This document shows positions 29,214-63,825 of a stretch of 64,000 bases of DNA, piece by piece. Each line of letters begins with the position of its first letter. Position 1 is the stretch's first letter. Source of the DNA: Malacoraja senta (lineage: Eukaryota); the NCBI GenBank assembly GCA_038087875.1, contig CM075992.1, positions 6,698,001 through 6,762,000 on the forward strand, read 5' to 3'. The position numbers were made by a program, and so were the translations under genes. The notes beneath the pieces are model-generated. The model saw only the letters and a program-made list of their open reading frames with translations, searched no databases and was not told the origin of the DNA.

Positions 29214-29902
29214 AACCCGACGTGCACAAACAAGATCACACAGAGCAAGTTGACCTGCAACTTGAGGCTGTGCACGCCATACGCAAGAAGAAGTAGAAGA
29301 CACGTAATAGGGACAATTTTACATTTACACCAAGCCAATTAACCTACAAACATGCACATCTTTGGAGTGTGGGAGGAAACCGAAGCATTCGGAGAAAATC
29401 CACACAGGTCACAGGGAGAAGGTACTAACTCCGTATAGATAGCTCCCGTAGTCAGGATCGAAGCCGGGTCTCTGTAAAGCAGCAACTCTACCGCTGCGCC
29501 ACCATGTGGTGTGAACCCTTTTTTGCTGTCAGGTTTGATGCAGGAACAAGTTACCACAGCAGTGAAATACTGGACCTGAGATTCTCCTTTCTCAATGTGA
29601 GCTCTGCACCTCCAGGTAACGTGGGTTTGGAATCCCTGGCCTTCAACAGCGCAGCATCTCCTTACTGGGCCAGTGAAGTACCAGTCTGGTGTTGCTGCCT
29701 CGGATAGAGGTGGGGACTGGAGCTGGGGTCCTTGCGGGTGAGAAGGGCTGCCCTGGGTCGCTGCCCTGAATCAAGGCCATAACTCCCAGTTGAGTTTTCC
29801 GTCTGGGATTCACCATTCGTGCATTGCTGAGCAGGCAATAGCCACGTCCTCTGGAAGTGATGCCTGTGCTGACGAGTGAACAAAATGGGGCATTTCTCTG
29901 AA

Positions 29903-30124
29903 GGTAGACAAAATTGCTGGAGAAACTCAGCGGGTGAGGCAGCATCTATGGAGCGAAGGAAATAGGCAACGTTTCTGGCCGAAACCCTTCTTCAGACCTG
30001 ACTACGGGGTTTGGGCCCGAAACGTTGCCTATTTCCTTCGCTCCATAGATGCTGCCTCACCCGCTGAGTTTCTCCAGCACTTTGTCTACCTTTGATTTTC
30101 CAGCATCTGCAGTTCCTTCTTGAA
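29903..30124 (+). mobile_element. PLE-derived fold-back mini-element
   Basis: Inverted arms; 12-bp TSD CATTTCTCTGAA at 29891-29902 and 30125-30136. Confidence 0.88.
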
Positions 30125-30400
30125 CATTTCTCTGAACACAGCTCTCCTGCAGGCACAGCCAGATGTACTGCTGCTAAATGCCAGTTGACATTTGTTGGAG
30201 GCGTTTGGGGTGGTGTAGTGGTAGAGTTGCTGCCTCACAGCGCCAGAGACCCGGGTTCAATCCTGACCGCAGGTGCTGTCTGTACAGAGTTCGTACATTC
30301 TCCCTGTGACCGGGTGCTCCGGTTTCCTCCACACTCCAAAGACCTACAGGTTTGGAAGTTATTTGGCTTTGCTAAAATTGTAAATTGTCCCTAGTGTGTA

Positions 30401-32095: not shown

Positions 32096-33616
32096 TAGGA
32101 TAGCGCCAGCGCATGGCGGCCTCATTGGGCTAATGGGCCTGTTTCCGTGCTGTATATCTAGTCTAAAAAGTCAGTGGCACTCTCCCGCCATCATGTGGTG
32201 ATCACAAGTAGTGTTGCAAACCTGAAAACCACCGGATGGTCCCAACCCGAAACGTCGTCTGCCAATTCTTCTCCACAGATGCTGCCTGACCTGCTGAGTT
32301 ACTCCAGCTTTATGTGTCAATCTTTGGTTTAAGTCAACATCTGCTGATCCTTCATCCTCAAAGCTTTTGTCGCCTCCAGTTTCCCCCCACCTCTATCTTT
32401 CAATCTTCCAGCACCTTGATGGGTGACTGAAGCTGAGAAGTGGAGACACAAGAAACTGCAGATGCTGTAATGTTGTTGCGAAACACAGCTGGAGTAACTC
32501 AACAGGTTAGGCAGCATCTGTGGAGGGAATGGACAGATAAAGCCTGCAGTTTCTGGAAATATGAAATAAAAAGGGAATGCTGGATGCACTCAATAGATCC
32601 GGCAGCATTCAAGGAGAAAAAAGCGAGACCCGAAACGTCACCTCTTCCTTCACTCTATAGCTGCTGCCTCACCCGCTGAGTTTCTCCAGCATTTTTGTCT
32701 ACCTTTAATGTTACAAAATGATGACTTTCATCAGAACTGGCCACTTCTGATATACATTAGAACGTTTGGTTGTGTAAAGTTGAATTCAGTGTTGAGTCCC
32801 AAGACTTGTTACATGCCGTGTTAGAATAATGAAAGACACTGAAAATGCAGATGCTAAGTGCTCCGTTCAGTAACGCCGCAAACCAGACTCGAATGAAGTA
32901 GGTGCCTCTTGCCTCTGGTGGAACTGTTGCATTGGCGTTTCCAGTGGTTCCATGGATCTGTGGCACAGTGTGGGAGAGAGAGACGGGTGAGTGGGGTTGG
33001 AGGAGGTCAGGGAGAACACTGAATGGAAGGAGATTCAGGGACGATGAGACTGAGGGTGAGTGAGAGAGTTCAAGACAAGGCTGGACAGTGAGGAGGTGGC
33101 AGTGGGCGGGGGCTTCATTGTCCGACCACCCCCCTCCCCCACTTATGTGTGGGCAAGGGAGGTGTTGACACACCTACCCACTAAACTCTGTTTATAATGC
33201 AGAAGATAGACACAAAAAAGCTGGAGTAACAGCATGTCAGGAGAAAATGAATAGGTGACGTTTAGGGTCGAGACCATTCTTCAGATATGCAGAAGAGCCT
33301 GGTCATAAGAAATAGGAGTAGAATTAGGCCATTCGGCCCATCAAGTTTACTCTGCCAGTCAATCATGGCTGATCTATCTGGCCCTCCCAACCCCATTCTC
33401 CTTCCTTCTCTCCATAACCTCTGACACCTGTACTAACCAAGAATCTATCTATCTCTGCCTTAAATATCTCCACTGACTTGGCCTCCATGGTAAATAAGTC
33501 AGTAACCGTGTTCACCATTTTCCCCACTCTAAAGGCTGCAGTAAGTAATGATTTCAATATCCCATTCCCGTGGTGCGTACCATTAAACGTTATCTGTTTA
33601 TTTATGTGTGTATATA

Positions 33617-34363: not shown

Positions 34364-36133
34364 CTAAAGAATGAGAACATCTTGGATGTCCTGGTATGGA
34401 ACATCTCATCTTGGGCGCAGATGCGGCGTAGACGGAGGAATTGGGAGTAGGGGATAGAGTCTTGAGAAGAAATGGGTGACGCTGGAGAAGATGGAGAGGC
34501 AATGTTTCGTGCCAAGAACCTTCTTCGGGACCATGTTCTCCAGAAATGCTGCCTAACCTACTGAGTTACACCAGAACTTTGTCTTTTTTTTGTAAACCAG
34601 CATCTGCAGTTCCTTAGTTCTACAGGCACTTGAAGAGAGCTGGTTTCGGGAATGGAAACAAATGAGCACATTCCCAGTCATTCCCGCTGCTGTCAGGCAA
34701 CATCTCTGGGGGGGGGGGAGGCTGTGTGACATTTCGGGTCAGGGTTAAGAAGGGTCCCGATCCAAAACATCGCCCTTTTTTTCTTCAGAGATGGTGCCTG
34801 ACCCGCTGAGTTACTCCAGCACTTTGTGTATCTTACGTTTTATCAGTGCTCCCTGCGTGAGTGGATTGAGATTAAGGTCTGAGTGGAAAGCAAAGACTGA
34901 AGAAGGGTTTCGGCCCGAAACGTTACCTATTTCCTTCGCTCCATAGATGCTGCTGCACCCGCTGAGTTTCTCCAGCATTTTTGTGTACCTGGGCAGAGAA
35001 TCTCCTGATTGTAGTGGGGTCAGATTTCCTCTCTGCAGGAAGGTCATTTACAAAGCGCGGGGAGGAAATCTTCCCATTGTAATTATCCAGTCAACATTCA
35101 GTCACCTAGAACACTAGGTGTGAGAGTCTTGCATTTAGAGAATGCCTCATTATTTCTCAAGGCACTCAACAGTCAGTGTCTTACATCACAGCAGGAAGTC
35201 ACTCAGCCAGTAGAACCTGCCTCCATGAAAGGGCTCTCAATTCAATTCAAACACAGGACAAATAAGCCATTTAAAAAGAAAAAACATTTAAAACCACGCA
35301 AACTGTTCACCCGCAACGCTGATTACACTGCGAGAGGCATAACTGAAGTCGGGTAAGGGTTACTGAAATGGCGAAAGTTACGCTCCGTTGCGTACTACAC
35401 GTCAGTTCATTGGATTTTGCAGGAGTGGGCCATCTTTTTGCTCCGCACTAAGATCTTTGGGGCTGAGTAATTTACTCTGACTGCCCACAATTGTCCCTAT
35501 TAATTTGCAGAACAGTTATTGGAAACAATGCAGTCAATTAGATGGAGGTGAGGCTTAATAAATAGATTATTGGACTGCTAAAATCAATTTATTTGAATAA
35601 GTATATTTATAGACCCATGCAAACAAAAAATCTTCGTAAACAATAGAGTGGAAGGTAGTTATTTATGTGTAGGAAGAAACTGTAGATGCTGGTTTACACT
35701 GAAGGTAGACACAAAATGCTGCAGTAACTCAGCGGGACAGGCAGCATCTTTGGAGAGAAGGAAGTTATTTATCAATTGAGCACAGAATCAATCTTTGTCA
35801 CTGGCAGCAGCGGGAATGACTGGGAATGTGCTCATTTGTTTCCATTCCCGAAACCAGCTCTCTTCAAGTGCCTGTAGAACTAAGGAACTGCAGATGCTGG
35901 TTTACAAAAAAAAGACAAAGTTCTGGTGTAACTCAGTAGGTTAGGCAGCATTTCTGGAGAACATGGTCCCGAAGAAGGATCTTGGCACGAAACATTGCCT
36001 CTCCATCTTCTCCAGCGTCACCCATTTCTTCTCAAGACTCTATCCCCTACTCCCAATTCCTCCGTCTACGCCGCATCTGCGCCCAAGATGAGATGTTCCA
36101 TACCAGGACATCCAAGATGTTCTCATTCTTTAG
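34364..36133. repeat. 333-bp near-perfect inverted duplication (34364-34696 / 35801-36133)
   Basis: About 2 mismatches by manual comparison; about 1.1-kb spacer. Confidence 0.92.
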
Positions 36134-36725: not shown

Positions 36726-37317
36726 CCTTGTCTTGGAAGCTATTCAGTTAGCCCCTCCTCCATGCGATTGTCCCATTGCCATTTTTCATTGAAAGAATTT
36801 TCCAATTTACAATTCCCATTGTGAAGGTTTGAGGTCACCCAACTCAGTACCGACTGTGATGGAAGAAAGGACATCCCAGGACTGAACTGTTGAACAATAT
36901 GTCAGCTGCTGGAGTTATTAACCCAGCTCTCGAGTTCTAAATAGTTTGCAATTCACTTTTATTCTGGCACTAGTATTGAATCAGGGTACACTGAATGGTG
37001 TCAAACTAACCATCACACTGTTTTAACAGTTCTGGTGAGTAAATAATGCACAAAGCTTCAAGCTTACTATTTGGTTTTCATTCACTTAAGGAGATTTATA
37101 TTTAAAGAGAGAATCATAGATTATTTCCATCTCCCGCAGCAGGATTGAAGCATTTATTAACTGTCGGCAGTAGTATTTGGGACAGTAGGCACCTCTGGTT
37201 TATTGCCACTTATTCCACTTTGCGTGCAAAGTTCCCCTGTAGCTGCTTGCAGACATATGACAAGATGCTGATTAGACCACAGTTCTGTGACACCATCCCT
37301 CTGGAAAGAAATACTAG

Positions 37318-37527
37318 TGTGTAGGAAGGAACTGTAGATGCTGGTTTACACAAAATATAGACAAAATGCTGGAGTAACTCAGCGGGACAGATCATCTCTG
37401 GAGAGAAGGAATGGGCGATGTTTCGGGACGTGTCTGAAGAAGGGTCTCGACCCAAAACGTCACCCATTCCTTCTCTCCAGAGATATCTGTCCCGCTGAGT
37501 TGCTCCAGCATTTTGTGTCTTTCATCA
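37318..37527 (-). mobile_element. PLE-derived fold-back mini-element
   Basis: Inverted arms; 13-bp TSD AAAGAAATACTAG at 37305-37317 and 37528-37540. Confidence 0.86.
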
Positions 37528-39739
37528 AAAGAAATACTAGCCTTGGGAAGAATACCACTTGGATTTATCCTAACTTTTGGATTCCAAGAGTTGCATTATC
37601 AAAAAAGCTTGCACAAACTAACATTCAGAAAGTTAAATGAGCCTTAATCAAAGTTTATGATAGGGTGGATGGAAATAATCACTCCTGGTTGAGGAATCTA
37701 GTGCTAAGATTTGAACCAAGGCTTTTCAACCAAAACTGAGTCCCATTCCCAATCTGATTTCCAGTTATTATACATCTTCAAGCAGTTCATCTCATGCCAA
37801 ACATAGAGAAGTAGAGCATAGGAACAGGCCCTTTGGCTCAACATATCAGCACCCGCCATGAGGTCAAATTAAACTAATGTCACCTGGAATGGTACATTGT
37901 TCCATGTCAGTACATAGGACAAGAAAACAACTCTTTTGATCTTTCAATTCCTTCTGATCATGTGAATGCTGAGGACTGCAACGTCCAGGTTCAGGAATAG
38001 CTGCTTCCCCACAGCCATCAGGCTATTAAATTCAACTGAAACAAAACTCTGAACATTAATAGACCATTATCTGTTTATTTCCACTTTATCTGCTTATTTA
38101 TTCATGTGTGTATATATCTATACAATGGTATATTGACACACTGATCCGTTCTGTATTCATGCCTACTATATTCCGTTGTGCTGAAGCAAAGCAAGAATTT
38201 CATTGTCCTCTCTGGGACACATGTCAATAAACTCTCTTGAATCTTGAAATGTTGCTAAAATATTTGTTTCCACTGGAAATGTATTCCAGCCACCTGCCAC
38301 TCTCCGTGTAAAAATCTTAACATGCCCCTGCCCATCTCATTTGAACTCGCCACCTCCCCATCTCACCTTGAACCCATGCCCTCTGCTCTCTTACGTCACC
38401 ACCCCAAGACAAAGATTCTGACCATCTCCCCTACCTAGAACCATCACTTGGTTCACACTGACAACGGGAAGAGTCTGGAAAGTACACATTAACAGACAGA
38501 GGAATCATGTACCGGATCAACCAAAATGTGCTGCAGTATGGACTGACGCTGGCAAATGCAGGGAGCACAAATTCACAGGAAACATTTAGCAAAGCATTGA
38601 CAGACTGTGTAGGAGATCATCCTTCCAGGCTTTTCAGCATGTAAAAAAAAAATGCATTGTTCATCCAAAAATATTATACTGCTGAGATCTAAACATTGCT
38701 TCACCCCCTTCTGTTGCTGCTTTGCTGGATGGTTTGCCTGTAATCTTTGTGGCAGGGTCTAATCTGTATGCAAACAGCAACGCAATGTCAATTGGGTAAT
38801 GAGACACTGGGATTCATCCTCATTATTCTCCTCGTGTGCTTGGGTGAGTAGAGCGGGAGAGACAGCAACGACCGGGAAAGCACAGCATCGATTACCCCAG
38901 TCGCCAGTTGTACTCTGCTACATCCCTGGTCATCGTATGCCCTCAGACGTCCAACACTGCATTTTCTTTTAATTAACTCTGATTGGATTTGAAGACATGT
39001 CTTGATTCGGATCCTAAACACACAGAATGCATTCCTTGGAGACCAAGGCTTCCAAATAGGATATCTCTGCTGAGCAACTTTCCCACAGTGTGATTCTTAG
39101 CAGGTTTACCTGATGAAGGCAAGGCTTCCTTGTAGTTTTGGCTGGCTTAGGTAGGGAAGTACAGGAAATAAGAATCAAACGTTTCTTCCTTAATCAATCT
39201 GCATACCTCAACAATTCAATGTGCAGGAAGGAACTGCAGATGCTGGTTTACACCGAAGACACAAAATGCTGGACTAACAGTGGGACAGGCAGCATGTCTG
39301 ACAAGAAGGAATGGGTCACGTTTCAGGTCAAGACCCTTCTTTTTCTATTTTAGCTTTGAGCAAAACACAAAGTGCTGCAAGAACAGGCAGCATCTGTGGG
39401 GGGGGGGGGGGGGAAGGATAGATGATGCCTCGGGTTACGACCCTTTCTCAGAATGGCCAGACTTTGCCCTACCCCTACTTCTCTTTTCCAGCTTTCAACC
39501 CCCTTCATCAGTCTGAAGAAACCAGACCCAAAGTGTTATCTGTCCATTCCCTCCACAGACGCTGCCCTAACCCACTGGGTTCCTCCAGCACTGTGTTTTT
39601 ACTCTATGCAAGTTTGCAGATCAGGACTTTTTTTCTTTCAGGCAAGGACAACAGCCATTTAGGCTCAACATTGAGTTCAACAATGTCACGTCATAATGAC
39701 TTGCCCCATCTCATCAGACAGCAGCTGTAGGTAACAATT

Positions 39740-39939: not shown

Positions 39940-40890
39940 TGGTGTTGCCATCATCTTTTGTCCCACACTATCAGTCCTCAATTGCTCCCGCCTTCCACTA
40001 TCATACAACTTCCTTTTTTTCACCATGTTAGTGTTTTAAACTGCTGGCTAGCAATGAGTGATATTATTAAATACAATCACCTGTTCTACGAAAGCATTAT
40101 ACAAAAGCTCGAGAGCAAGAGAATGTCGGAGCCAATTCAATTCCAAGAAGGATTTAATGAGACTACTCCTGTAGTAGGAATTGTCAGTTTTACTAGAATA
40201 ACTAGACAATGAATTTCTTTGTGTTAATCCTTTGTTCTCTTTTACACTGTGGCATCTTACTAAAGAGCACTAGCTCACATATAACTTTTCCCAAAGTTTA
40301 TTTACTTTTGTCTTTCCTTTTCTGCAGCTCCATGATTTACACCCATTCCATTTAGATCAACCAATTCATTTAAAATTATAATGATTAAATTATAACCAGC
40401 CTAGATAAAGCTGTATCAAAACCATTTATCTCTTTGCTCTTCTGCAGTCTTCCTTTCTATTTGGCTCCTGTGCAAATTTATTTTCCTTCCTATTTCACAG
40501 CATATCATACTCTGGGGAGAATATTCTGAAGGCCGAGTCTATTACCAAAGCCACACAGGCTGACATGTCATCTCTCTGGTTGCCATTTCACTTACACCTT
40601 TTATGCCCATCCCATCATATTATTTTATTATCGTTGTTCAAGGAAGTAGCAATCAACCTCCAACCAGAAAGGGCTAAATCTAATGCGATATTAACAATGC
40701 ACATTTATATTAAACAGTCTTAAATATATGAAATCTATGTCTCCGTAGATTGAGTGGTAAATTATGAAATGTCAATCTTTGAACACAAGAGAGCAGGAGT
40801 AGGCCACTCGGCCCCTCAAGCCTGCCTCACTATTCATGTATCCTGGCCTCAAAGTCAAGTCAAGTATATGCACAAGTACATATACACGAT

Positions 40891-41710
40891 ACCCCGTGAC
40901 ACTGCTCTCTCCCCATCCCCCCCCACTCGTAACAAGGGCCGAGTCCCCCTTGTCCTCACCTTCCACCCTACCAGCCGTCACGAACAACTAATAATCCTCC
41001 GTCATTTTCGCCACCTCCAACGTGACCCCACCACTTGCCACATCTTCCCATCTCCTCCCCTGTCCGCTTTCCGCAGAGACCGTTCCCTCCGTAACTCCCT
41101 GGTCAATTCGTCCCTTCCCACCCATACCACCCCCTCTCCGGGCACTTTCCCTGGCAACCGCAGGAAATGCTACACTTGTCACTTCACCTCCCCCCTTGAC
41201 TCCATTCAAGGACCCAAGCAGTCGTTCCAGGTGCGACAGAGGTTCACCTGCACCTCCTCCAACATCATCTATTGCATCCGCTGCTCTAGATGTCAGCTGC
41301 TCTACATCGGTGAGACCAAGCGTAGGCTTGGCGATCGCTTCGCCGAACACCTCCGCTTGGTTCGCAATAACCAACCTGATCTCCCTGTGGCTCAGCACTT
41401 CAACTCCCCCTCCCATTCCCAATCCGACCTTTCTGTCCTGGGCCTCCTCCACGGCCAGAGTGAGGACCACCGGAAATTGGAGGAGCAGCACCTCATATTT
41501 CGCTTGGGCAGTTTGTACACCAGCGGTATGAACATTGACTTCTCTAATTTCAGGTAGTCCCAACTGCCTCCTCCTTCTCAGCTCTCCCCCACCACCACCC
41601 ACCCTCACATCAGTCTGAAGAAGGGTTTCGGCCCGAAACTTTGCCTATTTCCTTTGCTCCATAGATGCTGCTGCACCCGCTGAGTTTCTCCAGCATTTTT
41701 GTCTACCTTA
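40891..41710 (+). mobile_element. 5'-truncated Penelope-like element (Neptune-type GIY-YIG endonuclease region plus terminal repeat)
   Basis: Open frame to TAG 41557: CYTC...FTCTSSNIIYCIRCSRCQLLYIGETKRRLGDRFAEH...VAQHF...RKLEEQHLIFRL...GMN; followed by CTGAAGA...GAAAC hammerhead-like motif and repeat arm. Confidence 0.92.
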
Positions 41711-47172: not shown

Positions 47173-47239
47173 CTCAGCATGGATTCTGTACACAAAGGGC
47201 CTGTTTCCACACAATCTTTAAACTAAAAAACACTCACTA

Positions 47240-49916: not shown

Positions 49917-50059
49917 GACCAAAAATGTCGCCCATTCCTTCTCTCCAGAGATGCTGCCTGTCTCTACCAAAAATGTCGGGCATTCCTTCTCTCCAGAGAT
50001 GCTGCCTGTCTCGACCAAAAATGTCGCCCATTCCTTCTCTCCAGAGGTGCTGCCTGTCC
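49917..50059 (+). repeat. Three tandem 48-bp units inside a fold-back element arm
   Basis: Unit ACCAAAAATGTCGCCCATTCCTTCTCTCCAGAGATGCTGCCTGTC repeated three times. Confidence 0.9.
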
Positions 50060-52181
50060 CGCAGAGTTACTCCAGCATTTTGTGTTTATATTCGGTTAAA
50101 CCAGCATCTGCAGTTCCTTTACACTAAAAGGAATAGGTGACTTTTCCCCACACGTGCCTGTCCAAATGGCTTTTTGAGAGAGTCTAGGACAGGGGGCACA
50201 GCCTCAGAATAAAAGGACATACCTTTAGAATGGAGATGAGGAGAAATGTCTTTAGCCAGAAGGTGGAGAATCTGTGGAATTCATTGCAACAGGCGGCTGT
50301 GGAGGATAGGTCATTGGGTATTTTTAAAGACGAGATTGATAGGTTCTTGATTAGTAAGGGCACCAAAGGTTACAGGGAGAAGGCAGGAGAATGGGGTTGA
50401 AGGAAAAATAGATGAGCCATGATATGGCGAAGCAGATTTGATGGGCCAAATGGCCTAATTCTGCTCCTATGTCTTGTGGCCTTTTAAATGTTATAGTACT
50501 TCCCTCAACCACATCCTCTGGCAACTCGTTCCATATACTCACCACAGTGAAACAGTTGCCCCTCAGGTTCTTATTAAATCTTTCCCATCTCATCATAAAC
50601 CTGTGCCCTCATGTTCTTAATTTCCTTACCCTTTGTAGTCATTACCTACTATGTTCTGCTGCGCTGAAGCAAAGCAAGAATTTCATTGTCCTATCAGGGA
50701 CATATGACAATAAACTCTCTTGAATCTTACCCTGGTGGAAATTCTCTGTGTATTCACCCTATCTATTCCCCTCATGATTTTATACACCTCTATATGGGTT
50801 TCCCATGGAGATGATGAGAAATTAGGGAATATTTATTTTAAAAATTATTTATTTCAGTTTTTTCCTCAGAAGGTGTGTACTTTTGTAGATGGGCATCGAG
50901 ATTCTTTCTGTGAGAGATGATACTTGACGGGCTGTTTGACTGGGGCAGGAATCACCACTGAGCCAACACTGTCAGTCACTAGCTGAAGTTGGGACGTGCT
51001 CAGCATATCAAGCAGCATCTGTGGAGAGAGGAAAAACACAGTTAACATTGCACATCAAAGGCAGTTCATCAGAACACGCAGAGTCTGGGGGTTTAGCACC
51101 GTAAGCACATTCATAGCCAGGGATAGAACAAAATGGGAACCAACAGCGACTTCCTTGCGATGGAACATCTCGGTCCTTTGCTGATCCTCACTAACCACGA
51201 CCTCCCTAGTCAGTAGTGCCTCGTGCACTGTTTGCCTATGCAAGTCCTCAGTAAATGTCAGTTCTTTTTAAACTTACGATGAAAAGGACGCAGCCTCCAG
51301 CGATACTGCTAGCTCTGCTCTGGGAAGTTGGTATTGGACGTGATTTTAAATCATCCAGTCGGCATTTAAAAAAGTGTAGGAAGGAACTGCAGATGCTGGT
51401 TTACACCAAAGATAGACAGTTACACAGTGGGTCAGGAAGCGTCTCTCGAGAAAAGGAATAGGTGGCGTTTTGGGTCGAGACCCTTCTTCGGACTTCTCAG
51501 TCTGAAGAAGGCTCTCAACCCAAATCGCCACCTATTCCTTTTCTCCAGAGATGTTGCCTGAGTTACTGCAGCACTTTATGTCTATCTTCAGTATTTTTAA
51601 AATCCAGTGTGTTTCAGAGTTGAGATCACGGGCGGCTAATGTGATATTCAGTTGTTCCCTAAGTCAATTCCGTAAAAAGATTACTTCTGTAGCTAATGGT
51701 TAAAAAGCCGAGGAAGTTGCTGCCAGCTTGCCTTCTTTCAAAGTAGGCTTGGTTTACACTAAGGGGAACAATGCAGCTCAGAGGTCACATGGGTCAATAC
51801 CAGAGCAGGCTGTCTCTCGGATCAGCCAGCCCTCTTAGCGTGAGTTTTATCTTGTTGGCAGATGGACCATTAATTGGGGGAGACTCGAAGGGAGGATAGT
51901 CTTTTGAATTATTCAGCTTGCTAATTCTCAGCGGGACTCGAGTAGATGCGTGCTCCTCCCCTTCCATCTCCCACCGCGTCCTCACTGTAGTTATCAGCCT
52001 ATTCCATTAAGGGTGTCAAGGGTTGAGAGGAGAAGGCAGGGGAACGGGGTTGAGGGGATGATGGATCAGCCATGATGGAATGGCGGGGTAGACTCGATGG
52101 GCCAAATGGCTCCCACTTCGGCTCCTATGACTTATGAACATGAGATCTGACTCGGGCAGAGACACGACATGCTCGGATACA

Positions 52182-52333
52182 ATGTGTAGGAAAGAACTAC
52201 AGATGCTGGTTTAAATCAAAGGTAGACACAAATCGAAGGTAGACAGTCTGAAGAAGGATCTCGACCCGAAACGTCACCCATTTCCTCTCCAGAGATGCTG
52301 CCTGACCCACTGAGTTACTCCAGCATTTTGTGT
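52182..52333 (-). mobile_element. PLE-derived fold-back mini-element
   Basis: 14-bp TSD CATGCTCGGATACA at 52168-52181 and 52334-52347; CTGAAGA...GAAACGTC core at 52248-52275 on +. Confidence 0.85.
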
Positions 52334-53895
52334 CATGCTCGGATACAGCTGTGCTCCCTGCCCACGGCAGACAGAATGATTTTTGCTTTGCCTCTACCTG
52401 CTAGGCAACGTAACTCCCCCACTTGGCCATCACCCTGGGAGTGGAAGTTGGAAGGACACCATGTGCTGTTACCTCTTCTCCCCCCCCCCCCCCCCCCGGG
52501 GGAAGGGAAAGGGGCAACATCTGCAGAGTGAGACAGTGCCATGACTCCGGGCAATCCCATGCTGGCTGCACAGCAATGTAGCACGTGGCTGTTCTGTAGG
52601 ATTTTACATATGAAATCCTCAGTTTAATTACCTCAGTTCACTTTAGTTCATTGTCATGTGTACAGTGAAAAGCTTTTGTTACGTGCTATCCAGTCAGCGG
52701 AAAGACAACTGTGTAGGAAACTTGTTGTGAGTTTATTTTTTTTTCTGTTTCCATTGGTACATAGAACATTATCTGAAATGCCAGGCAGCACATTGAGATC
52801 TGACTTAGTAAACCAAATAACTCTTAGGGTGGCACAGTGGTAGAGTTACTGCCTCCCAGCGCCAGAGACCCAGGTTCAACCCTGACCTCGGTTGCTGTCT
52901 GTGTGGAGCTTGCACATTCTCCCTATGGGTTTTCTCCTGGCGTTCCGGTTTCCACCCACATCCCAAAGTGGTGCAGCTTTGTAGGTTAATTGCCTTCTGT
53001 AAAATTGTCCCGAGTGTGTAGGATAAAACTGTGATCACGGGTCGGCATGGACTTGGTGGGCTGAAGGGCCTGTTTCAATCTGTATCTCTAAAATAAGCGA
53101 AACAAATCGCCTTTTCCATTCCCTTCGTTCCTACAAAATCCTCCAGTCTGTCAACCAGTTTCCTTGCTCCTCACTTCCAGTGTTACCTTCTTCCAAGACT
53201 CTCCCTCTCTCTCCCCCTCTCTCTCCCTCTCTCTCCCCCCTTCCTCTCCCCCCCTCCCCCTCTCCCTCTCCCTCCCTCTCTCTCCCCCTCTCCCTCCCCC
53301 TCCCTCTCCCCCTCTCTGTGACTCTCTCTGTCTGTCTCTCTCTTGCTCTCTCTGTCTCTGTCTCTCTCTATATCTCTCTCTCTGTGTCTCTCTTTGTCTC
53401 TCACCCCCTCTGTCTCTCTCTCTCGCTCTGTCTCTCTCCCTCTGTCTCTCTCCCCTCTCTCTGTGTCCCTCTCTCTGTATCTCTCCGTGTGTATCTCTCC
53501 CTGTCTCCGTCTCTCCCTGCTTGTCTCTTTATTTGCGTGTTTCTTTCTGTCTGTGTGTCTCTCTTTCCCTGCCTGTGTCTCTCCCCCTCTCTCTCGTTCT
53601 CCGTGATTGTGATGAAGAGTTACTGGATCATTGTTTCCAAGCTCACGCTGATTGAACCTGTTTCAGTTTGATGCATGGATAATTAGCCATCCTGTGGCGG
53701 TAGGAATAATAAATTAAGTTTTGAGCCCTGTTTTTGGGTGATGGAAAGGACTTGTGTTCCCCACGTACATCACAGCAGCTGCACCTTCCACAGTAACGTC
53801 TGCTAATCATTCAAAATCATCTTTAATACTTACAAAAGACAATGCCAATGAAGTAATAATTCATAAAGGTGAAAGAACACAGTATAGAGAAAGGG

Positions 53896-54133
53896 TCGAA
53901 GATGGACACAAAATGCTGGAGTAACTCAGTGGAACAGGCAGCATCTCTGTTGAGAAGGAATGGGTGACGTTTCGGGTCGAAACTCTTCAGACTGAAGTTC
54001 AGTCTAAAAAAGGGTCTCGACCTGAAATGTCACCCATTCCTTCTCTCCAGAGATGCTGCCTGTTCCACTGAGTTACTCCAGCATTTTGTGTCTATCTTCA
54101 GTTTAAACCAGCATCTGCAGTTCCTTCCTGCAC
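53896..54133 (+). mobile_element. PLE-derived fold-back mini-element
   Basis: Long near-perfect inverted arms; 12-bp TSD ATAGAGAAAGGG at 53884-53895 and 54134-54145. Confidence 0.88.
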
Positions 54134-55029
54134 ATAGAGAAAGGGACAGTGGGAAGATGACTGCTCTGGGCAAGGTCTCACTTGCTCAGTGGATGCAGTT
54201 GGCTCAACGGTTGGGTACGCTGTATCCCGAGAGACTGCTGTGTGCCACGTAAACATAGAATATAGATCAAAGAGCTGTACAGCACAGGGACAGGCCCTTT
54301 GGCCCACAATGTCTGTGCCAAACACAATGCCAACATAAACAGATCTTTGCCTGTACATGATCCACATCCCTCCATTCCCTGCATATCCATGTGCTGTCCC
54401 AAAACCTCTTAAATGCCACTATCTGCCTCCACTACCACCCCAGGTAGTGTGTTCCAGGCACCCACCACTCTGTACAAAATAAATTCCCCATGCATCACTT
54501 AAGAGACATAGCGCTGAAACATGCTCTTTGGCCCACCAAGTCCGTGCCGACCAGTACCTTGTGCACTAACACTATCTTACATACAAGGGACAATTTACAT
54601 TTTTTTAACCAAAGCCAATTAACCTACGCACCTGTACATCTTCGGTGTGTGGGAGGAAACCAGAGCTCCCAGAGAAAACCCACACGGTCACAGACTAGTA
54701 TACAAACTCCGTACAGACAGCACTCGTGATCAGGGTCGAACCCGAGTCTTTGGAACCGTATGGCAACAGCTCTACTGCTGCACCACTATGCTGCCCCCAT
54801 CTCCTTTCAACTTTGTCCCTCACACCTTAAACCTCCAAGTGTATGCCTCCCTTTTTCTTAAGTGTGTGGCATTAATAAAAAGATGAAATCTCGCTCTATT
54901 TCTAATAAGATGGAAGCGTTCATAAATCAAAGCCTTTAGGTTGATTGTAAGCTGGAGAGCTGCTTGGTATCCTTGCTGAATCAGAATTCTTCCGAGAGCA
55001 AGAATGTTTCAGCTCCGCGGAATGGTTGG

Positions 55030-55750: not shown

Positions 55751-57483
55751 TTCTATACATTTATGTTAATTCAAGAATATATATTTAAATTAATAATTGC
55801 CAAGTGTTTTGTGTTTAAAAGCATGTCAGTGTCTGTCTTTATGCTCCTTGCGTCCCCTCCCATCCTTCATCTGATCCAGTGGTTTGCAAACCACGGGCCG
55901 CATGTGACTCATTGCAGTCTAAAGAACATCCTGTTGAAACGCTCTAATGGATCAAGAGTTGAAAGAGTTTAATTGTCATGTGTACCAGTCACGGAACCAT
56001 TCTTACTTGCTGCAGTTTCAAAGGCCCGTTAACTCAATAACACATCGATAAATATACAATAATTGTGATTATAGTAAATTAATAACCATCAGTAGCCATT
56101 TAATAACCAATAACCATCATCACTACTGGAGTTGCTGCTTCACAGCACCAGAGATCCAGGTTCGATCCTGACCACGGACACAAGTCTGTGTGTGGAGTTT
56201 GCACGTTCTCCCTGTGACTGAGTGAGTTTCTTCTGGGTACTCCGGTTTCCTCCTACATCCCGAAGACAAGCGGGTTTGTAGGTTAATTGGCCCTCTGTAA
56301 ATTGCCCCCAGTAGGTAGGGACGAGAAAGTGCGATAATGTAGAACTATTCCCTCGTAGAACGGGTGATCGATGGGCTGGGAACACCTTGGCCAAGAGTTC
56401 ATTGTTATATATTGGACTGCAGTGTGGGGTCCAATCTGCTGTTAACAACATCAGTGTTTGAGGGTGCAGAGAATCCTGCATGGGTGGCACGGTGGCGCTG
56501 CAGTAGAGTTGCTGCCTTACAGCGCCAGAGACCCGGGTTTGATCTTGACCATGGGTGCTGTCTATGGAGATTGTACGTTCTCCCCGTAACCTGTGTGGGT
56601 TTTTCCCGGGTGCTCCGATTACCTCCCACACTCCAAAGACGTACAGGTTTGTAGGTTAATTGACTTTGGTAAAATTGCAAATTGTCCCTAGTGTGTGTAG
56701 GATAGTGTTAGCGTGAGGGGATCACTGGTCGGGACGGACTTGGTGGGCCGAAGGGCCTGTTTCCGCACTGTATCTCTAAACTAGACTGGAGAGAGACGAG
56801 GTGGTGGTGACGTGGATAATCTACATGCCTGGAACTAGATGCTAAAACGAGAATAATTTAATGCAACCCTGGATATGATGGCCTGAGTCAACCTATAATG
56901 TGGGCTGACTTTGCTGGTTGGGGATTGACCAAAGGGCAGATGGAGTTAGAGATAGTGAATAGATCACAAGGTGTGCTAAAGAGCCTGAATGTTGCTGGGA
57001 TGAAGCTGTTCCAGAACCTGAATGTCCTTGGAAAGATCAGCGGGTCAGGCAGCATCTGTGGAGCAAACAGACAGACAACCTTTTGGGTCGGGACGCTTCT
57101 TCAGACTGAGTCTGAGACATTGTCTGTCCACTTCCTCCACAGATGCTGCCTGGTCTGCTGAGTTTGTGTTTTGCTCAAGATTCCAACATCTGCAGATTCT
57201 TGTGTGTCTGTGTTAGAGATGGTGTTTGGTTAAAGATAAGCGACGTGTAGTGGTACTGGCTCCAGAAGCCCTCTCCCTTCCTGCTTCCTGTGACTGTAAG
57301 GGAGACAGAAATAGACTTCAAAGAGATATAGACAGCCCAGTGGAAAGAGCGGATATGTGGCTGGCAAAACCTATTGCGTAGAAATGTGAAGTGTTACATT
57401 TTGTGAGGATGAGACAATATAGACCAGAAAGATCTGCGAGTGTGTATTGAAAATGGCAGGGCAGGAAAAGCATAAGAACAAGG

Positions 57484-57647
57484 AATGTAGATGCAAGGAA
57501 CTGCAGATGCTGGATCACAATGAAAGATCCAAAATGCTGGAGTAACTCAGACTCTGAAGAAGGGTCCCCCAACCCGAAACATCACCCATCCATGTTCTTC
57601 AGAGATGCTGCCTGACCCGTTGAGTTACTCCAGCATTTTGTGTCTTT
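57484..57647 (-). mobile_element. PLE-derived fold-back mini-element
   Basis: 12-bp TSD ATAAGAACAAGG at 57472-57483 and 57648-57659. Confidence 0.82.
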
Positions 57648-58977
57648 ATAAGAACAAGGGACTTCAGTGTTGCTTTACTTGTCACAAAAGCAAATGCACC
57701 GTGAAATTATTTTTGCATATTTACACATGCCATGTTTTGGCACCATTATTCAAAGTCCAGTCAGCCCACGGGCTCGATGTACTGGAGCAGTTCCCGTGAA
57801 CCAAAGACTCTCCTCTCCTTGCCCGGCCATCTTTGTGTCTCGGGGGCGCCTCGTGCAGCCGACCTTGAAAGCGCTGGAGGCATTACCCTGGTTCACCCTC
57901 CTACCAGCCCTTGCTCCTCGCGTTCGATGTCTCCAGCTTCGTCCGGTTACGCCGACCGACGAGCCTTCAGGCAAGGTCCCGTTGACCAACGAGCCTTTGG
58001 GCAAGCTCCCTTTTTTGATAAACTGTTGTAAACTGTTGTAAAAGACCAGTTCAGTCATTGCTGGAATGTTATTTACACTTTTGGGTGCCATAATTTAGAA
58101 AAAATGTGAAGACAAAAAAAAAAGGTGTTGAAGAGATTTATTATCATTCCAAGGACCTCCAGGTTCAGGAACAGTTTCTTCCCAACATCATTCAGGCTCT
58201 TGAACAGCCCCTTAAACACTGAGGGCCTGTAAATCTGCAGCAAGTAAGATTTCCATTGTCAAGGAACTTAACACCATCCAACACAACCTCAGCCATTTTA
58301 CTGCATCCACTGCTAGACCAAAACACCAAGTGCTGGAAGAATGTGGTCTGAAGAAGTTTCCCGACCCGAAACGCAATCTGTCCATTCCCTCCACAGATGC
58401 TGCCCGATGAGTTCCTCCAGCAATTTGTGTTCCACCCCGGATTTCAGCATTTATGCACAAATGGAGCAGCTAGAGCTGCTGTCTTACAGTGTCAGAGATT
58501 CGATCCTGACCTCGGGCACTGTCTGTGTGGAGTTTGCACATTCTCCCTGTGACCATGTGGTTTCCTCCCAGTGCTCCGTTTTCCTCCCACATCCCAAAGA
58601 TGTGTGGGTTTGCCGGTTAATTGGTCCTCTGTACATTGCCCCTAGCGTAGGGAATGGATGAGAAAGTGGGATGACACAGGACTAGTGTTAATGGGTGATC
58701 GATGGGCCTGAGGGCCTGTTTCCATGCATTCAATCAATAAATCAATCAATCTGTAGTTCCCCTTGTCTCCACTGAACATAATACCTACAATGTTTACTGC
58801 AAAATACGCTAGCATTTCACCAGATCTCAGGACACTGCACTGGTTCAATGCCACTTTATTGTTTCATGTATCGAGGTACAGCAAAATCTTTTTTTCATAA
58901 CGTCCAGTAAAATCTTACTATACATAAGCACAATCATACTTAAGTACAAGAGTGTAAGAATAGCAGATTACACTGTA

Positions 58978-59430: not shown

Positions 59431-61774
59431 TCTTATGATTGGTGTCCGCAGATTTTTTTGTGCTTTACCTGGTTTAATCTCTTAACTGAAACACGGGTCA
59501 TCCCACAGGTCCTCCATTCGGCTGTCAGCTCGGATTTTTAATGCTAATGGTTTCTTCACTGGTATAAGCGAATGCGGGAGGAAACCGAAGATCTTGGAGA
59601 AAACCCACGCAGGTCGCGGGAAGAACGTACAAATTCCGTACAGACAGCACCCGAGGTCAGGATCGAACAGCTCTACCCACTGCCGCCCTTTTCCTGTAAC
59701 CTACCATACGCCTACTATACCACTCTGCAAGCAAAGGTAAAAATAGAAAGTAGCTGGAGGAAGACAAACAGCCCTCCTGATGTGGAATCCAGGCTTCATT
59801 TAATTAAAACTTCCATCCGAACAACCTCCAATTTGTGTTCAACGGGCAACACTCTCCTCTCAGGGTCCCGTTTATTCTCTTGCCTGGCGGCAGCTCCTTG
59901 CAAAGCACAGCCAGTGAAATAATCTGGTTATTTTTAGCGCCCGTTGGGAAAGTGCAGAGATCGGTCATTCTCACCAGCTCAACTACACACAGCCCACACT
60001 TCCCGTGACAGCTGGAGATGCTTGCTGCGTGATTGGATTGGTGAAACAATTAGTTTTTTTTTAAATATGGGAGAGAAAACTGGTTAACTAACTCCCCGCC
60101 AGCTATGTTTCTCACAGCAGCTGAGAGAGCCCTGTTTTTTTTTACACCGGGGGAAGAAAGGGCTTAATTATCTTTCGAATCGATCTGCTGCTGTTGCTGT
60201 GACACTGTGCCCTTTTTGAAATTAGTATTCTGCAGCCGGGGATACAGCGAAGAACATCCTGAGAGAAGAAGGGCGTGCTGCAGGAGGGAGCTTTTCAGCT
60301 GTAAAATGTGTTAATTGAACGGGTTATCTTCCTTTGTTTCTCACTGGAGGGAAGAGGTGGGTGCGCTGAGGAGACATGGGGGAGAAAGGTCTTGTGGGAG
60401 GGGGCTGTGCAGGAAGGAACTGCAGATGCTGGTTTACACCAAAGATAGACACAAAGTGCTAGAGTAACTCAGCGGGTCAGGCAACATCTCTTGATAGAAG
60501 GAATGGGTGACGTTTCGGGTCGAGACCCTTCTAGACGTGAAAAACCACGACAATTTAAGACATGAAAAGCCACGTCTTGAATCGTAGAATTTCCGTGGCT
60601 TTTCATGTCTAGAATTTTTGTGGCTTTTCACGTCTAGAATTTTCGTGGCTTTTCACGTCTTGAATTTCATGAAGTCTGAGGAGTTACTCTTGCATTTTGT
60701 GTCTATCTTCGGTGGAAGGGCTCTCTTTGTTCTGGTAACTTGGACGCTTGGTCAGCCCGTAGCAAATGGCAAACTGGGGAGAGTGTCTTATTGAAAGGTG
60801 GAAATATCTAGTCTGACAGAGTGGATGTGGTGTTGGGAATCATGGGTCACAATGTGGAAATCAGGGGTCAGCTATACACAAGAAAGATGAGAAGGGATTT
60901 CTGGCTGAGTGGTCCATCACACAAACCGGCCCCCTGCACCATCGATTCCACCTACACCACGCTGCCTCGGGGGAAAGGACCCAACATAAACAAGGACCAC
61001 TCACACCCAGTCCTTTCCTCTTCTCCCTTCTCCCATCGGGTAGAAGATACAAAAAGCTTGCAAGAACATAACACTGTTGTTTACTGAACAGTCCTCTCAC
61101 AAACTAGGGTGCAGACCTGATCTCCCAACCTACCTCTTGTTGGATTTTTCTATCTGCACTTTCTCTGTAACTGTAACCCAAAACACTGTATTCTGCACTC
61201 CATTTGCAAGTTGTCTATTACTTGATTGTACTCATGAAGAGTATAATTTGACTGGACGCAAGCAAACCACTCCATATCCTTAATAGCCTCTATTCCAGGC
61301 AGCAGTCTGGTAAACCTCATCTGCACCCTTTCCAAAGCCTCCACATCCTTCCTGTAATGGGGTGACAAGAACTGCGCACAATACTCCAAATTTGGCCCAA
61401 CTAAAGTTTTATGAAGCTGCAAAATGACTTCCCCACTCTTATATTCCATGCCCAACCTCACTGCCCCTTGTCACCGCGTGGGTTTACTCTGGGTGCTCCG
61501 GTTTACTCCCACATCCCAAAGACATGCGGATTTGTAAGTTAATTGATCTCTGTAAATAGCCCCTAGTGTATGGAGTGGATGTGAAAATGGGATAACATCG
61601 AACTAGTGTGAACTGGTTATCGATGGCTGGCATGGATTCTGTGGGCCAAATGGCCTGTTTCCATGCTGTGTCTGTTAACAAAGAGGTCCCAACAATGATC
61701 CCAGTAGAACAACACTGGTCAGAGACCTCCAGCCAGAATAACATCCTTCCAGCATTACTCTCTGTCTTCTATAA

Positions 61775-63020
61775 CCATATAACAATTACAGCACGGAAAC
61801 AGGCCATCTCGGCCCTTCTAGTCCGTGCCGAACACTTACTCTCACCTAGTCCCATCTACCTGCACTCAGACCATAACCCTCCATTCCTTTCCCGTCCATA
61901 TACCTATCCAATTTATTTTTAAATGATAAAAACGAACCTGCCTCCACCACTTCCACTGGAAGCTCATTCCACACAGCTACCACTCTCTGAGTAAAGAAGT
62001 TCCCCCTCATGTTGCCCCTAAACGTTTGTCCCTTAATTCTCAAATCATGTCCTCTTGTTTGAATCTTCCCTACTCTCAATGGAAAAAGCTTATCCACGTC
62101 AACTCTGTCTATCCATCCCATAATTTTCAAGACCTCTATCAAGTCCCCCCTTAACCTTCTGTGCTCCAAAGAATAAAGACGTATCTTGTTCAACCTTTCT
62201 CTGTAACATAGGTGCTGAAACCCAGGCAACATTCTAGTAAATCTCCTCTGTACTCTCTCTATTTTGTTGACATCTTTCCTACATTATGCACATTATGCAC
62301 ATAGCACATTATGCTATATTGCACCTTTTATTAATGAATATTTTATATAATGTATATGTCCATTGTCTATTTTTATTGGTACACTGTCTGTCTGTGTTAT
62401 AAATATTACTTGCACATTGGAGTATGGAGAAACGCAATTTCAATCCTCTGTGTAACTACTTGTTACATTATTTGAATTGACAATAAAAAAAAAAATTACT
62501 AATTACTATTACTATTACTATAATTTGGCGACCAAATTTGTACACCATACTCCAGAATTCTATGGGTAAGCTCCTTCTGAATTCAAACTATCAAGACCCG
62601 TGTATCTTAAATTTCTGGATGAGCCTACCAGGAGGGAACTTGTGAAATACCTTGCTGAAATCAATATGTACTGCCATTATCCACTGCCCTTCCCTCATCG
62701 ATCACCTTCATGACCACAAAAAAACTCAATCTAGTTTGTAAGACATGAACTGCCAAAACTATGCTCACTGTCCCCAATTAACCCATTCTCTTCCAATGAG
62801 AATAAATGCTTTCCCAAAGGATCCTCTCCAATAGCTTCCCTACCAATGATGTGTGAATCTCCGGTCTATAATTTCCTGGATTATCCCGATTTCTTTTCTC
62901 GAACAATGGAACAACATTGGCTACTGTCCAGTCCTCTGGGAACTTGCCAACAGCTAAAGAAGATACAAAAATCTTCGTCAAAGCCCCTCCAATCTCCTCT
63001 CTTGGCTTTCTCAATAATCT
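61775..63020 (-). mobile_element. Cluster of CR1 LINE fragments
   Basis: ORF 61846-62232 (YSLEHRRLRGDLIEVLKIM...WNELP) and ORF 62778-63014 (PEDWTVANVVPLFEK...NPGNYRP). Confidence 0.85.
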
Positions 63021-63825
63021 GGTGCAGCATGGTGACGCAGTGGCAGAGTTGCAGCCTCACAGCGCCAGAGACCCGTGTTCGATCATGACTACAGGTGCTG
63101 TCTGTACAGAGTTTGTACGTTCTCCCCATGACCTGCGTGGGTTTTCCCCGGGTGCTCTGGTTTCCTCCCACACTCCAAAGACGTACACGTTTGTATGTTA
63201 ATTGACTTTGGTAAAATTATAAATTGCCCCTAGTGTGTGTAGGATTGTGTTAGTGTGCGGAGATCCCTGGTCGTGCAGACTCGGTGGGCCGAAGGGCCTG
63301 TTTCTGCTCTGTATCTCCAAAGTAAACTGAACTAGTCTTATCAGGCCCTGGGATATAACCAATTAATTATCTTCAAAAGACTTAATGCTGCCTACTTTAG
63401 ATTTTTACTTTAGCAATACAGGGGGGAAATAGGCCCTTCGGCCCACCAACTCCACATCGACCAGCACACTAGGGACAATTTACAACTTTTTTACTGAAAC
63501 CATTTAACCTACAAACCTGTACGTCTTTGGATTGTGGGAGGAAACTGGAGCACTGGGAGAAAACCCACGTGGTCACAGGGAGAACATACAAACTCCATAC
63601 AGACAACACCCATAGTCAGTTGTTCAAGAAGGAACTGCAGTTGCTGGAAAATCGAAGGTATACAAAAGTGCTGGAGAAACTCAGCGGGTGCGGCAGCATC
63701 TATGGAGCCCATAGATCCCATAGTCAGGTTTGGAGCTGGTCATTGGCGCTGTGAGGCAGAAACTCTACCGCTGCGCCACCGTGCTGCATTAGATAATTTG
63801 AGTTTGATTTTGGGGGCGGTTGTTT

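What the first reader, a model, noticed from the sequence alone, without database searches (positions are those of the whole stretch)
29891..63727. Fold-back mini-elements insert with 10-14 bp TSDs, a fixed 3' end and a ~34-nt unpaired tail: retrotransposition with inversion rather than MITEs
Seen: exact TSDs flank copies at 29891 (12 bp), 37305 (13), 43891 (14), 45026 (14), 52168 (14), 53884 (12) and 57472 (12), and single-arm copies at 35657 (10) and 63609 (11). One arm usually reaches the same end (...CAGTTCCTTCCTACAC or ...CTTCTTGAACA). The inverted arm stops near GAAGATAGAC/GAAGGTAGAC, leaving about 34 nt unpaired. The inversion junctions cluster in or next to the hammerhead core. Established: Penelope insertions can have inverted pseudo-LTRs and a short 3' extension. 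Inference: each hairpin forms during insertion by template switching or second priming at a preferred site, possibly on ribozyme-processed short RNAs. The window gives a readable record of this mechanism.
Basis: partly seen in the sequence, partly recalled or inferred. Interest (0 to 1): 0.7.

Follow-up and report, generated by a model that had tools for sequence, protein, structure and literature searches.

The report
Hairpin stubs of Penelope-like retrotransposon
These short hairpin-shaped repeats are end pieces left by a known kind of jumping gene (a Penelope-like retrotransposon); they are ordinary as a class, but their ends keep an unusually clear record of how such elements paste themselves in.

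Summary
In detail: all 9 TSDs are exact. The repeats are the terminal repeat (pLTR) of a Neptune-type Penelope-like element. Two GIY-YIG ORF fragments run straight into the same hammerhead-bearing sequence, one with its own 10-bp TSD. They are not MITEs.

In 21 TSD-bounded insertions (TSD 9-15 bp):
- All 11 two-armed copies carry exactly one tail of about 35 nt, and all junctions differ.
- Arm 5' ends pile up just upstream of the hammerhead core (11 of 32) or in it (12 of 32). None lies within 3 nt of the cleavage site, so 'ribozyme-processed RNA' is not supported.

Best reading: both target nicks prime reverse transcription, at the two start sites known in vitro for an Anolis element, on uncleaved RNA. 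The two cDNAs are then joined head to head. Inverted pLTRs, the one-sided tail and minimal hammerheads are published, and the scan noted such stubs in two other genomes. Not found in my searches: the one-tail rule, the fixed 5' stop and a one-sided target bias, all from small samples in one window.

The parts
40877..41718 (+). 5'-truncated Penelope-like copy: linker + GIY-YIG ORF end (about 40889-41557), spacer, hammerhead region, tail-less 3' end; 10-bp TSD at 40877/41709
46445..47066 (-). second ORF-bearing copy (internally deleted GIY-YIG end, spacer, hammerhead region, tail-less end); only a weak 8-bp, 1-mismatch flanking repeat
41553..41614 (+). spacer between ORF end and hammerhead core: starts GT, pyrimidine-rich (0.78), ends CAG; candidate intron or promoter region; most stubs stop at its 3' edge
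   Evidence: function inferred
29891..30136 (.). hairpin, subfamily B; tail-less arm to -28, tailed arm from -19; TSD 12 exact
37305..37540 (.). hairpin; tailed arm to -13, tail-less arm from -29; TSD 13 exact
43891..44129 (.). hairpin; tailed arm to -29 with an intact minimal hammerhead, tail-less arm from -15; TSD 14 exact
45026..45246 (.). hairpin; tail-less arm to -23, tailed arm from -6 and ending at +96; TSD 14 exact
52168..52347 (.). nearly non-overlapping inversion: tailed arm +54..+103, tail-less arm -31..+61, 17-bp local duplication; TSD 14 exact
53884..54145 (.). hairpin with both arms reaching about -33 and a closed palindromic centre; TSD 12 exact
57472..57659 (.). hairpin, subfamily C; tailed arm from +37, tail-less arm from about -30; TSD 12 exact
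35657..35772 (-). single tailed arm +6..+103; TSD 10 exact
63609..63727 (-). single tailed arm +14..+101 plus 8 filler bases; TSD 11 exact
1585..1694 (-). single tail-less arm from -28; TSD 10 exact
2065..2177 (.). non-overlapping inversion (+17..+64 and +63..+103); TSD 14 with 1 mismatch
4090..4326 (.). hairpin nested in an older copy near its cleavage-site position; TSD 13 with 1 mismatch
4328..4464 (-). single tail-less arm nested in the same older copy; TSD 13 with 1 mismatch
19141..19333 (.). decayed hairpin, subfamily C; TSD 10 with 1 mismatch (weak); tail assigned by eye
19348..19461 (-). single tail-less arm; TSD 12 with 1 mismatch
33197..33296 (-). single tail-less arm from -28; TSD 10 exact, 5 nt shared with the template
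42553..42722 (.). hairpin (-12..+70 and from +37) nested at the 5' end of another copy; TSD 13 exact
42757..42916 (+). whole subfamily-B unit (about -28..+101) inserted into a subfamily-A copy at position +1; TSD 15 exact
44804..44989 (+). tailed arm from about -32 with 24 nt of unresolved 5' sequence; TSD 14 exact; junction shared with another organism's contig
45711..45821 (-). single tail-less arm from -29; TSD 9 exact (length within the chance range); junction shared with other organisms' contigs
20192..20344 (.). one-tailed hairpin without a recoverable TSD
26753..26957 (.). one-tailed hairpin without a recoverable TSD
49815..50119 (.). one-tailed hairpin with a 48-bp tandem triplication in the tailed arm; no recoverable TSD
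51374..51606 (.). one-tailed hairpin, both arms reaching -30/-32 with a 4-nt loop; no recoverable TSD

Best explanation
The stubs are insertions of the pseudo-LTR of a Neptune-type Penelope-like retrotransposon, made by its RT/GIY-YIG protein.

Shown here: identity with the 3' end of ORF-bearing copies; variable TSDs; two alternative 3' ends; one tail per hairpin; a 5' stop near -29; an uncleaved template.

Inferred mechanism:
1. The endonuclease nicks one target strand at a loosely preferred site, and RT starts at the downstream start site (+101 to +103).
2. The second nick, 9-15 nt away, primes a second cDNA about 35 nt upstream (+60 to +70), helped by 0-5 nt of pairing, probably on the same RNA.
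3. Each cDNA runs towards a hard stop just 5' of the hammerhead core (probably the RNA 5' end, or a block at a splice-acceptor-like site), or is cut short.
4. The two cDNA ends are trimmed and joined, giving a one-tailed head-to-head hairpin. If only one cDNA survives, a tailed or tail-less single arm results.
Junctions cluster in the core because the core lies next to the stop, not because the ribozyme cuts there.

Odds: about 0.95 for the identity as pLTR insertions, about 0.6 for twin priming as the route to the hairpin.
For: - ORF fragments with a C-terminal GIY-YIG lead through a 60-100-nt spacer into the same sequence. Relatives at 61-68% identity from sharks and rays include RT + GIY-YIG proteins.
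- The 832-bp ORF copy has a 10-bp TSD and ends at the tail-less site.
- 11 of 11 TSD-bounded hairpins have one tail (0.5^11 = 5e-4 if arms chose freely), as do 4 of 4 further well-preserved hairpins without a TSD.
- Both 3' ends also occur alone (6 tail-less, 4 tailed), so each is a priming site.
- In 7 of 11 hairpins the tail-less arm reaches further 5', and two copies (2065, 52168) are almost non-overlapping inversions, like L1 twin priming (PMC2837659).
- Overlap between TSD and template at the tail-less end averages 1.19 nt, against about 0.37 expected (P about 6e-4).
- A at -3 on the tail side of the target in 15 of 21 (P 3e-5 before correction); A[AG]T in 10 of 21 there against 1 of 21 on the other side.
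- 11 of 13 arms that reach -26 stop within 9 nt.
- In four runs, loose-end piles among the best supported fall at 44036 (-29; 4 runs) and 43939 (+68; 3 runs).
- In vitro, the Anolis element nicks and extends both strands, starts RT at two sites that bound the tail, and does not need ribozyme cleavage (PMC11167929).
Against: - One window, 21 hand-curated insertions; 23 of 41 clusters gave no TSD.
- The 9-nt stop window and the A[AG]T motif were chosen after seeing the data.
- 8 of 16 tail-less ends show no overlap, and in hairpins alone the mean is only 0.8.
- A shared template is only weakly shown: the partner arm is the nearest relative in 4 of 12 measurable pairs.
- In vitro the Anolis element shows no strand difference in start site, and it belongs to another clade (Poseidon).
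- Later one-sided deletions at the hairpin centre could mimic the 7 of 11 pattern.
- No empty site was seen (15 of 20,030 joints listed).
- The loose-end pile at 44036 coincides with the end of the laid copy, so it is partly built in.
Confidence: 0.65

Rival explanations
1. Fold-back or self-priming: one cDNA (or an antisense RNA) turns back at the palindromic 5' edge of the pLTR and copies itself; the endonuclease resolves the intermediate and leaves the tail on one side (the view in PMC3846280 and PMC8557442).
For: Four hairpins have closed, near-palindromic centres at about -30 to -34 with loops of 1-4 nt (42729, 51502, 54004, 57104). One tail per hairpin follows naturally. Both arms share rare variants in 7 of 15 pairs.
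Against: In 7 of 11 hairpins the tail-less arm holds sequence absent from the tailed arm. Six single arms, including an ORF-bearing one, end at the tail-less site with no partner. Two RT start sites are seen in vitro.
Confidence: 0.2
2. Self-propagating non-autonomous element: a few ready-made hairpin or solo masters are transcribed and re-inserted whole by the Penelope protein; junction variety arises later by deletion at the palindrome centre.
For: Stubs far outnumber ORF-bearing copies (75 arm hits, 2 with ORF). Four sequence subfamilies occur. A fixed 5' end would follow from a short master. Non-autonomous PLE derivatives are published (10.64898/2026.07.22.740005; PMC8557442). Solo masters are compatible with the best explanation.
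Against: All 11 junctions differ. The tail-less end varies with, and partly pairs with, each copy's own target. No head-to-tail array of whole units was seen among the 32 tandem-repeat rows.
Confidence: 0.1
3. One reading: the template is a hammerhead-cleaved or circular short RNA, and junctions mark the cleavage site.
For: A minimal hammerhead is present (2 intact matches in the window, 1 in 30 shuffles). Arm ends are denser in the core than downstream (12 in 567 nt against 6 in 1701 nt, P 2e-4).
Against: 0 of 32 ends lie within 3 nt of the cut and 25 of 32 run past it. Cleavage is dispensable in vitro, and no RNA reads end at the site in Anolis.
Confidence: 0.04
4. MITE: a DNA transposon with long terminal inverted repeats.
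For: Arms of 60-90 bp at 92-96% complementarity.
Against: TSD 9-15 bp and variable; asymmetric termini; single arms with TSDs; continuity with a GIY-YIG ORF.
Confidence: 0.01

Closest known systems
EN+ Penelope-like elements with inverted pLTR and one-sided 30-40 bp tail (Arkhipova 2013 PMC3846280; Craig 2021 PMC8557442; passages read)
   Same: Head-to-head inverted 5'-truncated pLTR, tail on one end only, TSDs of 8-10 bp, palindromes at the junction, solo pLTRs.
   Different: Here most insertions are pLTR only (about 85-240 bp between the TSDs) and are dense (10% of the window). TSDs reach 15 bp. There is no microsatellite targeting of the kind hypothesised for Neptune.
Poseidon of Anolis carolinensis, PAc (Frangieh 2024 PMC11167929; main text read, parts 1-2 of 4)
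   Same: Two RT start sites that bound the tail, about 85-92 nt past the cleavage site for the main one; both strands nicked and extended; uncleaved RNA used; ATT-type nick preference; own pLTR can be a target.
   Different: Poseidon clade, without the linker zinc finger. Its ORF starts in stem II, whereas no shared ORF start was seen here. No strand bias of start site in vitro. The parts read do not describe hairpin formation or a fixed 5' stop.
Minimal hammerheads of metazoan PLEs (Cervera and de la Pena 2014 PMC4209133; parts 1-2 of 4 read)
   Same: Core boxes, a bulged base before stem II, no stem III with a palindromic 15.2-16.2 pair, mostly dispersed copies, pairs on opposite strands 100-700 bp apart; in D. 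virilis the intron ends at helix I.
   Different: Stem II is 4-5 bp and stem I only 2-3 bp here. Activity was not tested.
Non-LTR retrozymes (Li 2026, 10.64898/2026.07.22.740005; parts 1-3 of 5 read)
   Same: Non-coding, pLTR-related, hammerhead-bearing; reported in the one cartilaginous fish sampled.
   Different: Defined as head-to-tail tandems; the copies here are head-to-head or single and do not start at the cleavage site.
L1 twin priming and dual priming (PMC2837659; passages read)
   Same: TSD-bounded inversion from priming at both nicks; microhomology at the internal priming site.
   Different: L1 inversions are non-overlapping, start at poly(A), and use random internal sites. Here arms mostly overlap and the second site is nearly fixed.

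Membership tests
EN+ Penelope-like element | C-terminal GIY-YIG endonuclease with CCHH motif | tested here: met
   Pfam GIY-YIG E 5.7e-4 (20.6 bits, below the 22.6 cut-off); C132, C135, H170, H176 invariant in 9 sequences
EN+ Penelope-like element | Reverse transcriptase in the same ORF | tested here: inconclusive
   Both window copies are truncated before the RT. Relatives P0001, P0009 and P0010 carry RVT_1 plus GIY-YIG (RVT_1 above cut-off only in P0010)
EN+ Penelope-like element | pLTR downstream of the ORF, in direct or inverted copies, with an optional 30-40 bp tail | tested here: met
EN+ Penelope-like element | Hammerhead motif in the pLTR | tested here: met
   2 intact descriptor matches against 1 in 30 shuffles; many decayed ones. 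No Rfam hammerhead family hit
EN+ Penelope-like element | Short variable TSD | tested here: met
   9-15 bp in 21 insertions
Neptune clade | CX2-5CxxC zinc finger in the RT-EN linker | tested here: met
   C-X4-C-X2-C in the relatives; the window copy has G at the first C; feature from PMC8557442. Also true of Nematis
Neptune clade | Placement in an RT phylogeny | not tested
   No RT in the window and no clade reference set was fetched
Neptune clade | Bias for microsatellite targets (hypothesised) | tested here: not met
   TSDs are ordinary sequence, 64% AT against 55% in the window
Non-LTR retrozyme | Head-to-tail tandem units, each with a hammerhead | tested here: not met
   Only a 48-bp partial triplication without the full core
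Non-LTR retrozyme | Self-cleaved, circular RNA | not testable with these tools
   No raw-read RNA run was offered; DNA ends do not match the cut
MITE | Symmetric terminal inverted repeats and a fixed-length TSD | tested here: not met

The most novel reading that the evidence does not exclude
Penelope-like elements insert by ordered twin priming on one RNA. The sequence-preferred nick takes the downstream start site and the second nick takes the upstream one. When this happens at the pLTR at the 5' end of the transcript, RT runs off after 100-135 nt, giving a 'strong-stop'-like cDNA. That one rule would explain the tail, the inverted 5' pLTR and the excess of solo stubs, and the stubs would map the RNA 5' end (or a splice-acceptor block) to about -29 in any genome.
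Probability: 0.35. Interest if true: 0.6.

Novelty: new member of a known kind. Interest (0 to 1): 0.32.

Why it matters
As a class the stubs are known Penelope by-products, and the practical lesson is that they should be annotated as retroelement ends, not as MITEs or microRNA precursors. Their value is as a natural record. How Penelope-like elements make inverted repeats and tails is still stated as open (PMC8557442, section 15; PMC11167929). Here three regularities can be counted from DNA alone: one tail per hairpin, a fixed 5' stop, and a one-sided target bias. With a whole genome they would separate twin priming from fold-back, and they make a direct prediction for the existing in vitro system.

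Tried and rejected
- Whole genome: none is held, so no genome-wide table.
- Exact scans of viral and metagenome contigs with a core motif: 0 and 0 hits.
- Rfam: 17 matches, all below gathering score, mostly microRNA hairpin models; no hammerhead.
- Empty-site test with four contig runs on 40000-47200: inconclusive. Only 15 of 20,030 joints were listed and none was an empty allele. Run X1 had no differences in its unique pieces and may be the source. Contigs of other organisms bridge the right junctions of 44804 (X2) and 45711 (X2, X4), so these are shared rather than polymorphic.
- Expression: no RNA holder was listed; this is no evidence either way.
- RNA structure: five monomer folds were not more stable than shuffles (z -1.18 to +0.45). 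Three proposed stems are 90.7% paired, with no pair changed on both sides; not supported by covariation.
- Spliced template: the 5' letters at 54004 and 44848 resemble ORF end joined to core, but palindrome fill-in or internal sequence explains them as well; left open.
- Earlier findings by place and by sequence: nothing.
- Decayed two-armed clusters (32450-32711, 34485-34615, 35882-36002, 39363-39597, 57037-57201) were not scored for the one-tail count.
Full report
Observation. The same search at 300 random position pairs never gave 10 bp and gave 9 bp three times. The family is larger than reported: a profile built from 20 window stretches finds 75 arm hits in 41 clusters, 6,646 bases or 10.4% of the window, in about four subfamilies that differ in their last bases. 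I bounded 21 insertions by TSDs of 9-15 bp, 16 exact and 5 with one mismatch. Some were found with search windows set by eye. The 9-bp case and the 10-bp case with a mismatch are weak. The 21 lie in 18 clusters; 23 clusters gave none.

What the sequence is. Two ORF fragments, at about 40889-41557 (+) and 46638-47003 (-), end in a GIY-YIG domain (Pfam E 5.7e-4, below cut-off, for the first; no hit for the second). They continue through a 60-100-nt spacer into the very sequence of the stubs. A search for longer relatives gave 12 proteins, the best four at 61-68% identity from whale shark, a devil ray, zebra shark and bamboo shark. Three of the six scanned carry RT plus GIY-YIG. The alignment shows the CCHH residues and a C-X4-C-X2-C linker, which PMC8557442 gives for Neptune and Nematis. 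The host is therefore probably a cartilaginous fish (inference), and the stubs are the pseudo-LTR of a Neptune-type Penelope-like element. The first ORF copy has its own exact 10-bp TSD and ends at the tail-less site, which ties stubs and parent to one machinery. The pLTR carries a minimal hammerhead: two intact descriptor matches, one in 30 shuffles. Rfam has no match for it.

3' ends. Numbering from the predicted cleavage site, tailed arms end at +101 to +103, one at +96. Tail-less arms end at +60 to +70 (16 of 17 scored). All 11 two-armed TSD-bounded copies have exactly one tail (7 one way round, 4 the other; the tail of 19141 was assigned by eye). So do four well-preserved hairpins without a TSD. 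Five decayed two-armed clusters were not scored. Both ends also occur alone: 6 tail-less and 4 tailed single arms. At the tail-less end the TSD continues the template for a mean of 1.19 nt, against about 0.37 by chance (P about 6e-4), though 8 of 16 show none. On the tail side of the target, position -3 is A in 15 of 21 (P 3e-5 before correction for 20 positions). A[AG]T lies there in 10 of 21, against 1 of 21 on the other side; this motif was picked after seeing the data.

5' ends and junctions. Of 32 arm 5' ends, 11 lie at -34 to -26, 12 at -25 to -6, none within 3 nt of the cleavage site, 7 downstream and 2 upstream. Eleven of the 13 arms that reach -26 stop within 9 nt, where a constant drop-off predicts 7% (window chosen post hoc). 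Ten of the 12 ends inside the core belong to two-armed copies, as trimming before joining would give. All 11 junctions differ. In 7 of 11 the tail-less arm holds sequence that the tailed arm lacks, in 3 the reverse, and in 1 they are level. Copies 2065 and 52168 are almost non-overlapping inversions. The stop coincides with CAG/TCTGA at the end of a pyrimidine-rich spacer. This reads three ways: as an initiator (consensus recalled, from no call); as a splice acceptor (in D. virilis the Penelope intron ends at helix I, PMC4209133, and lies 46 nt after the start site, PMC2377424, passages read); or as a short palindrome. I cannot choose among them.

Other DNA. No genome is held. Four contig runs laid on 40000-47200 gave about 680,000-750,000 laid contigs each, other repeats included. 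Loose-end piles appear at 43939 (+68; 308-370 contigs in three runs) and 44036 (-29; 840-945 in four runs, agreement 0.32-0.33, but this is also where the laid copy ends). No empty allele was among the 15 of 20,030 joints shown. Contigs from other organisms, about 4-5% different in the flanks, bridge junctions of 44804 and 45711, so those insertions are old and shared.

Mechanism. Shown: a retrotransposon end, two alternative priming positions, one of each per hairpin, an uncleaved template, and a 5' stop. Established: the Anolis Poseidon protein nicks and extends both strands, starts at two internal sites that bound the tail, prefers ATT, and does not need ribozyme cleavage (PMC11167929). L1 makes TSD-bounded inversions by priming at both nicks (PMC2837659). 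Inferred: the first nick primes at about +102 and the second at about +66; the cDNAs run to the stop or are cut short, and their ends are joined. Loss of one cDNA gives a single arm. I put this at about 0.6. Whether one RNA or two serve is weakly resolved: the partner arm is the closest relative in 4 of 12 measurable pairs, and rare variants are shared in 7 of 15. Fold-back self-priming (PMC3846280) fits the four closed palindromic centres but needs later one-sided deletions in 7 of 11 copies, and it does not explain tail-less singles. Ready-made masters, ribozyme-cut templates and MITEs fit worse.

Comparison and novelty. Inverted 5'-truncated pLTRs, a 30-40-bp tail at one end, 8-10-bp TSDs, junction palindromes, solo pLTRs and opposite-strand hammerhead pairs are in print. 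The scan's own notes report the same kind of stub in two other genomes. In my searches and the parts of papers that I read, I found no account of the one-tail rule as a count, of a fixed 5' stop, or of a one-sided target bias, and no description of this family. Most subscription papers, all supplements and Repbase were not seen. Verdict: a real feature, a new member of a known kind, interest 0.32. The boldest reading, ordered twin priming with strong-stop stubs, has probability 0.35 and would deserve 0.6.

Noticed in passing
window 4090, 4328, 42553, 42757: Four of 21 insertions sit inside or at the edge of older copies of the same family; two TSDs begin at -2 and +1 of the host copy's cleavage-site position. 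Possible self-targeting.
   Followed up: partly
window 41553-41614 and 46539-46640 (-): The spacer between ORF end and core looks like a short intron (GT start in one copy, pyrimidine tract, CAG); junction letters at 54004 and 44848 could come from spliced RNA.
   Followed up: partly
window 39501-39597, 43230-43330, 11557 (-): Older copies that keep pyrimidine-rich spacer upstream of the core, exceptions to the 5' stop.
   Followed up: no
window 55317-55601: Unrelated hairpin with 89-nt arms (96%) and a 9-10-bp direct repeat in its flanks; not of this family.
   Followed up: no
window 60529-60667: Hairpin made of 25-bp repeats, abutting and apparently interrupting the 5' end of copy 60406.
   Followed up: no
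window 33612-33814 and 30712-31200: TA-flanked element with 42-nt inverted ends, and a DDE_3 transposase fragment: Tc1/mariner-type remains (family label recalled).
   Followed up: no
window 34485-34615 and 35882-36002: Two copies with nearly identical private sequence in opposite orientation, 1.3 kb apart; probably a local inverted duplication.
   Followed up: no
window 27887-28420: Tim29-like coding stretch (Pfam E 1e-46); a GC-rich stretch at about 24950-25480 may be a first exon or CpG island.
   Followed up: no
window 49911-50058 and 52213-52245: Local tandem duplications (48 bp x3.1; 17 bp x1.9) inside arms near junctions; possible RT slippage.
   Followed up: no
pLTR +17..+25 with +79..+87: Complementary segments conserved in all subfamilies could close a stem around the tail-less start region, but show no compensatory change.
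   Followed up: yes
protein P0003 C-terminus; P0011, P0012: The zebra shark model ends in residues that would be encoded by a hammerhead core (inference), and two annotated host genes contain pieces of this endonuclease.
   Followed up: no
window 657-1258, 63086-63618 and elsewhere: Another abundant SINE-like repeat in inverted pairs; resembles the elasmobranch HE1 SINE (recalled, not tested).
   Followed up: no
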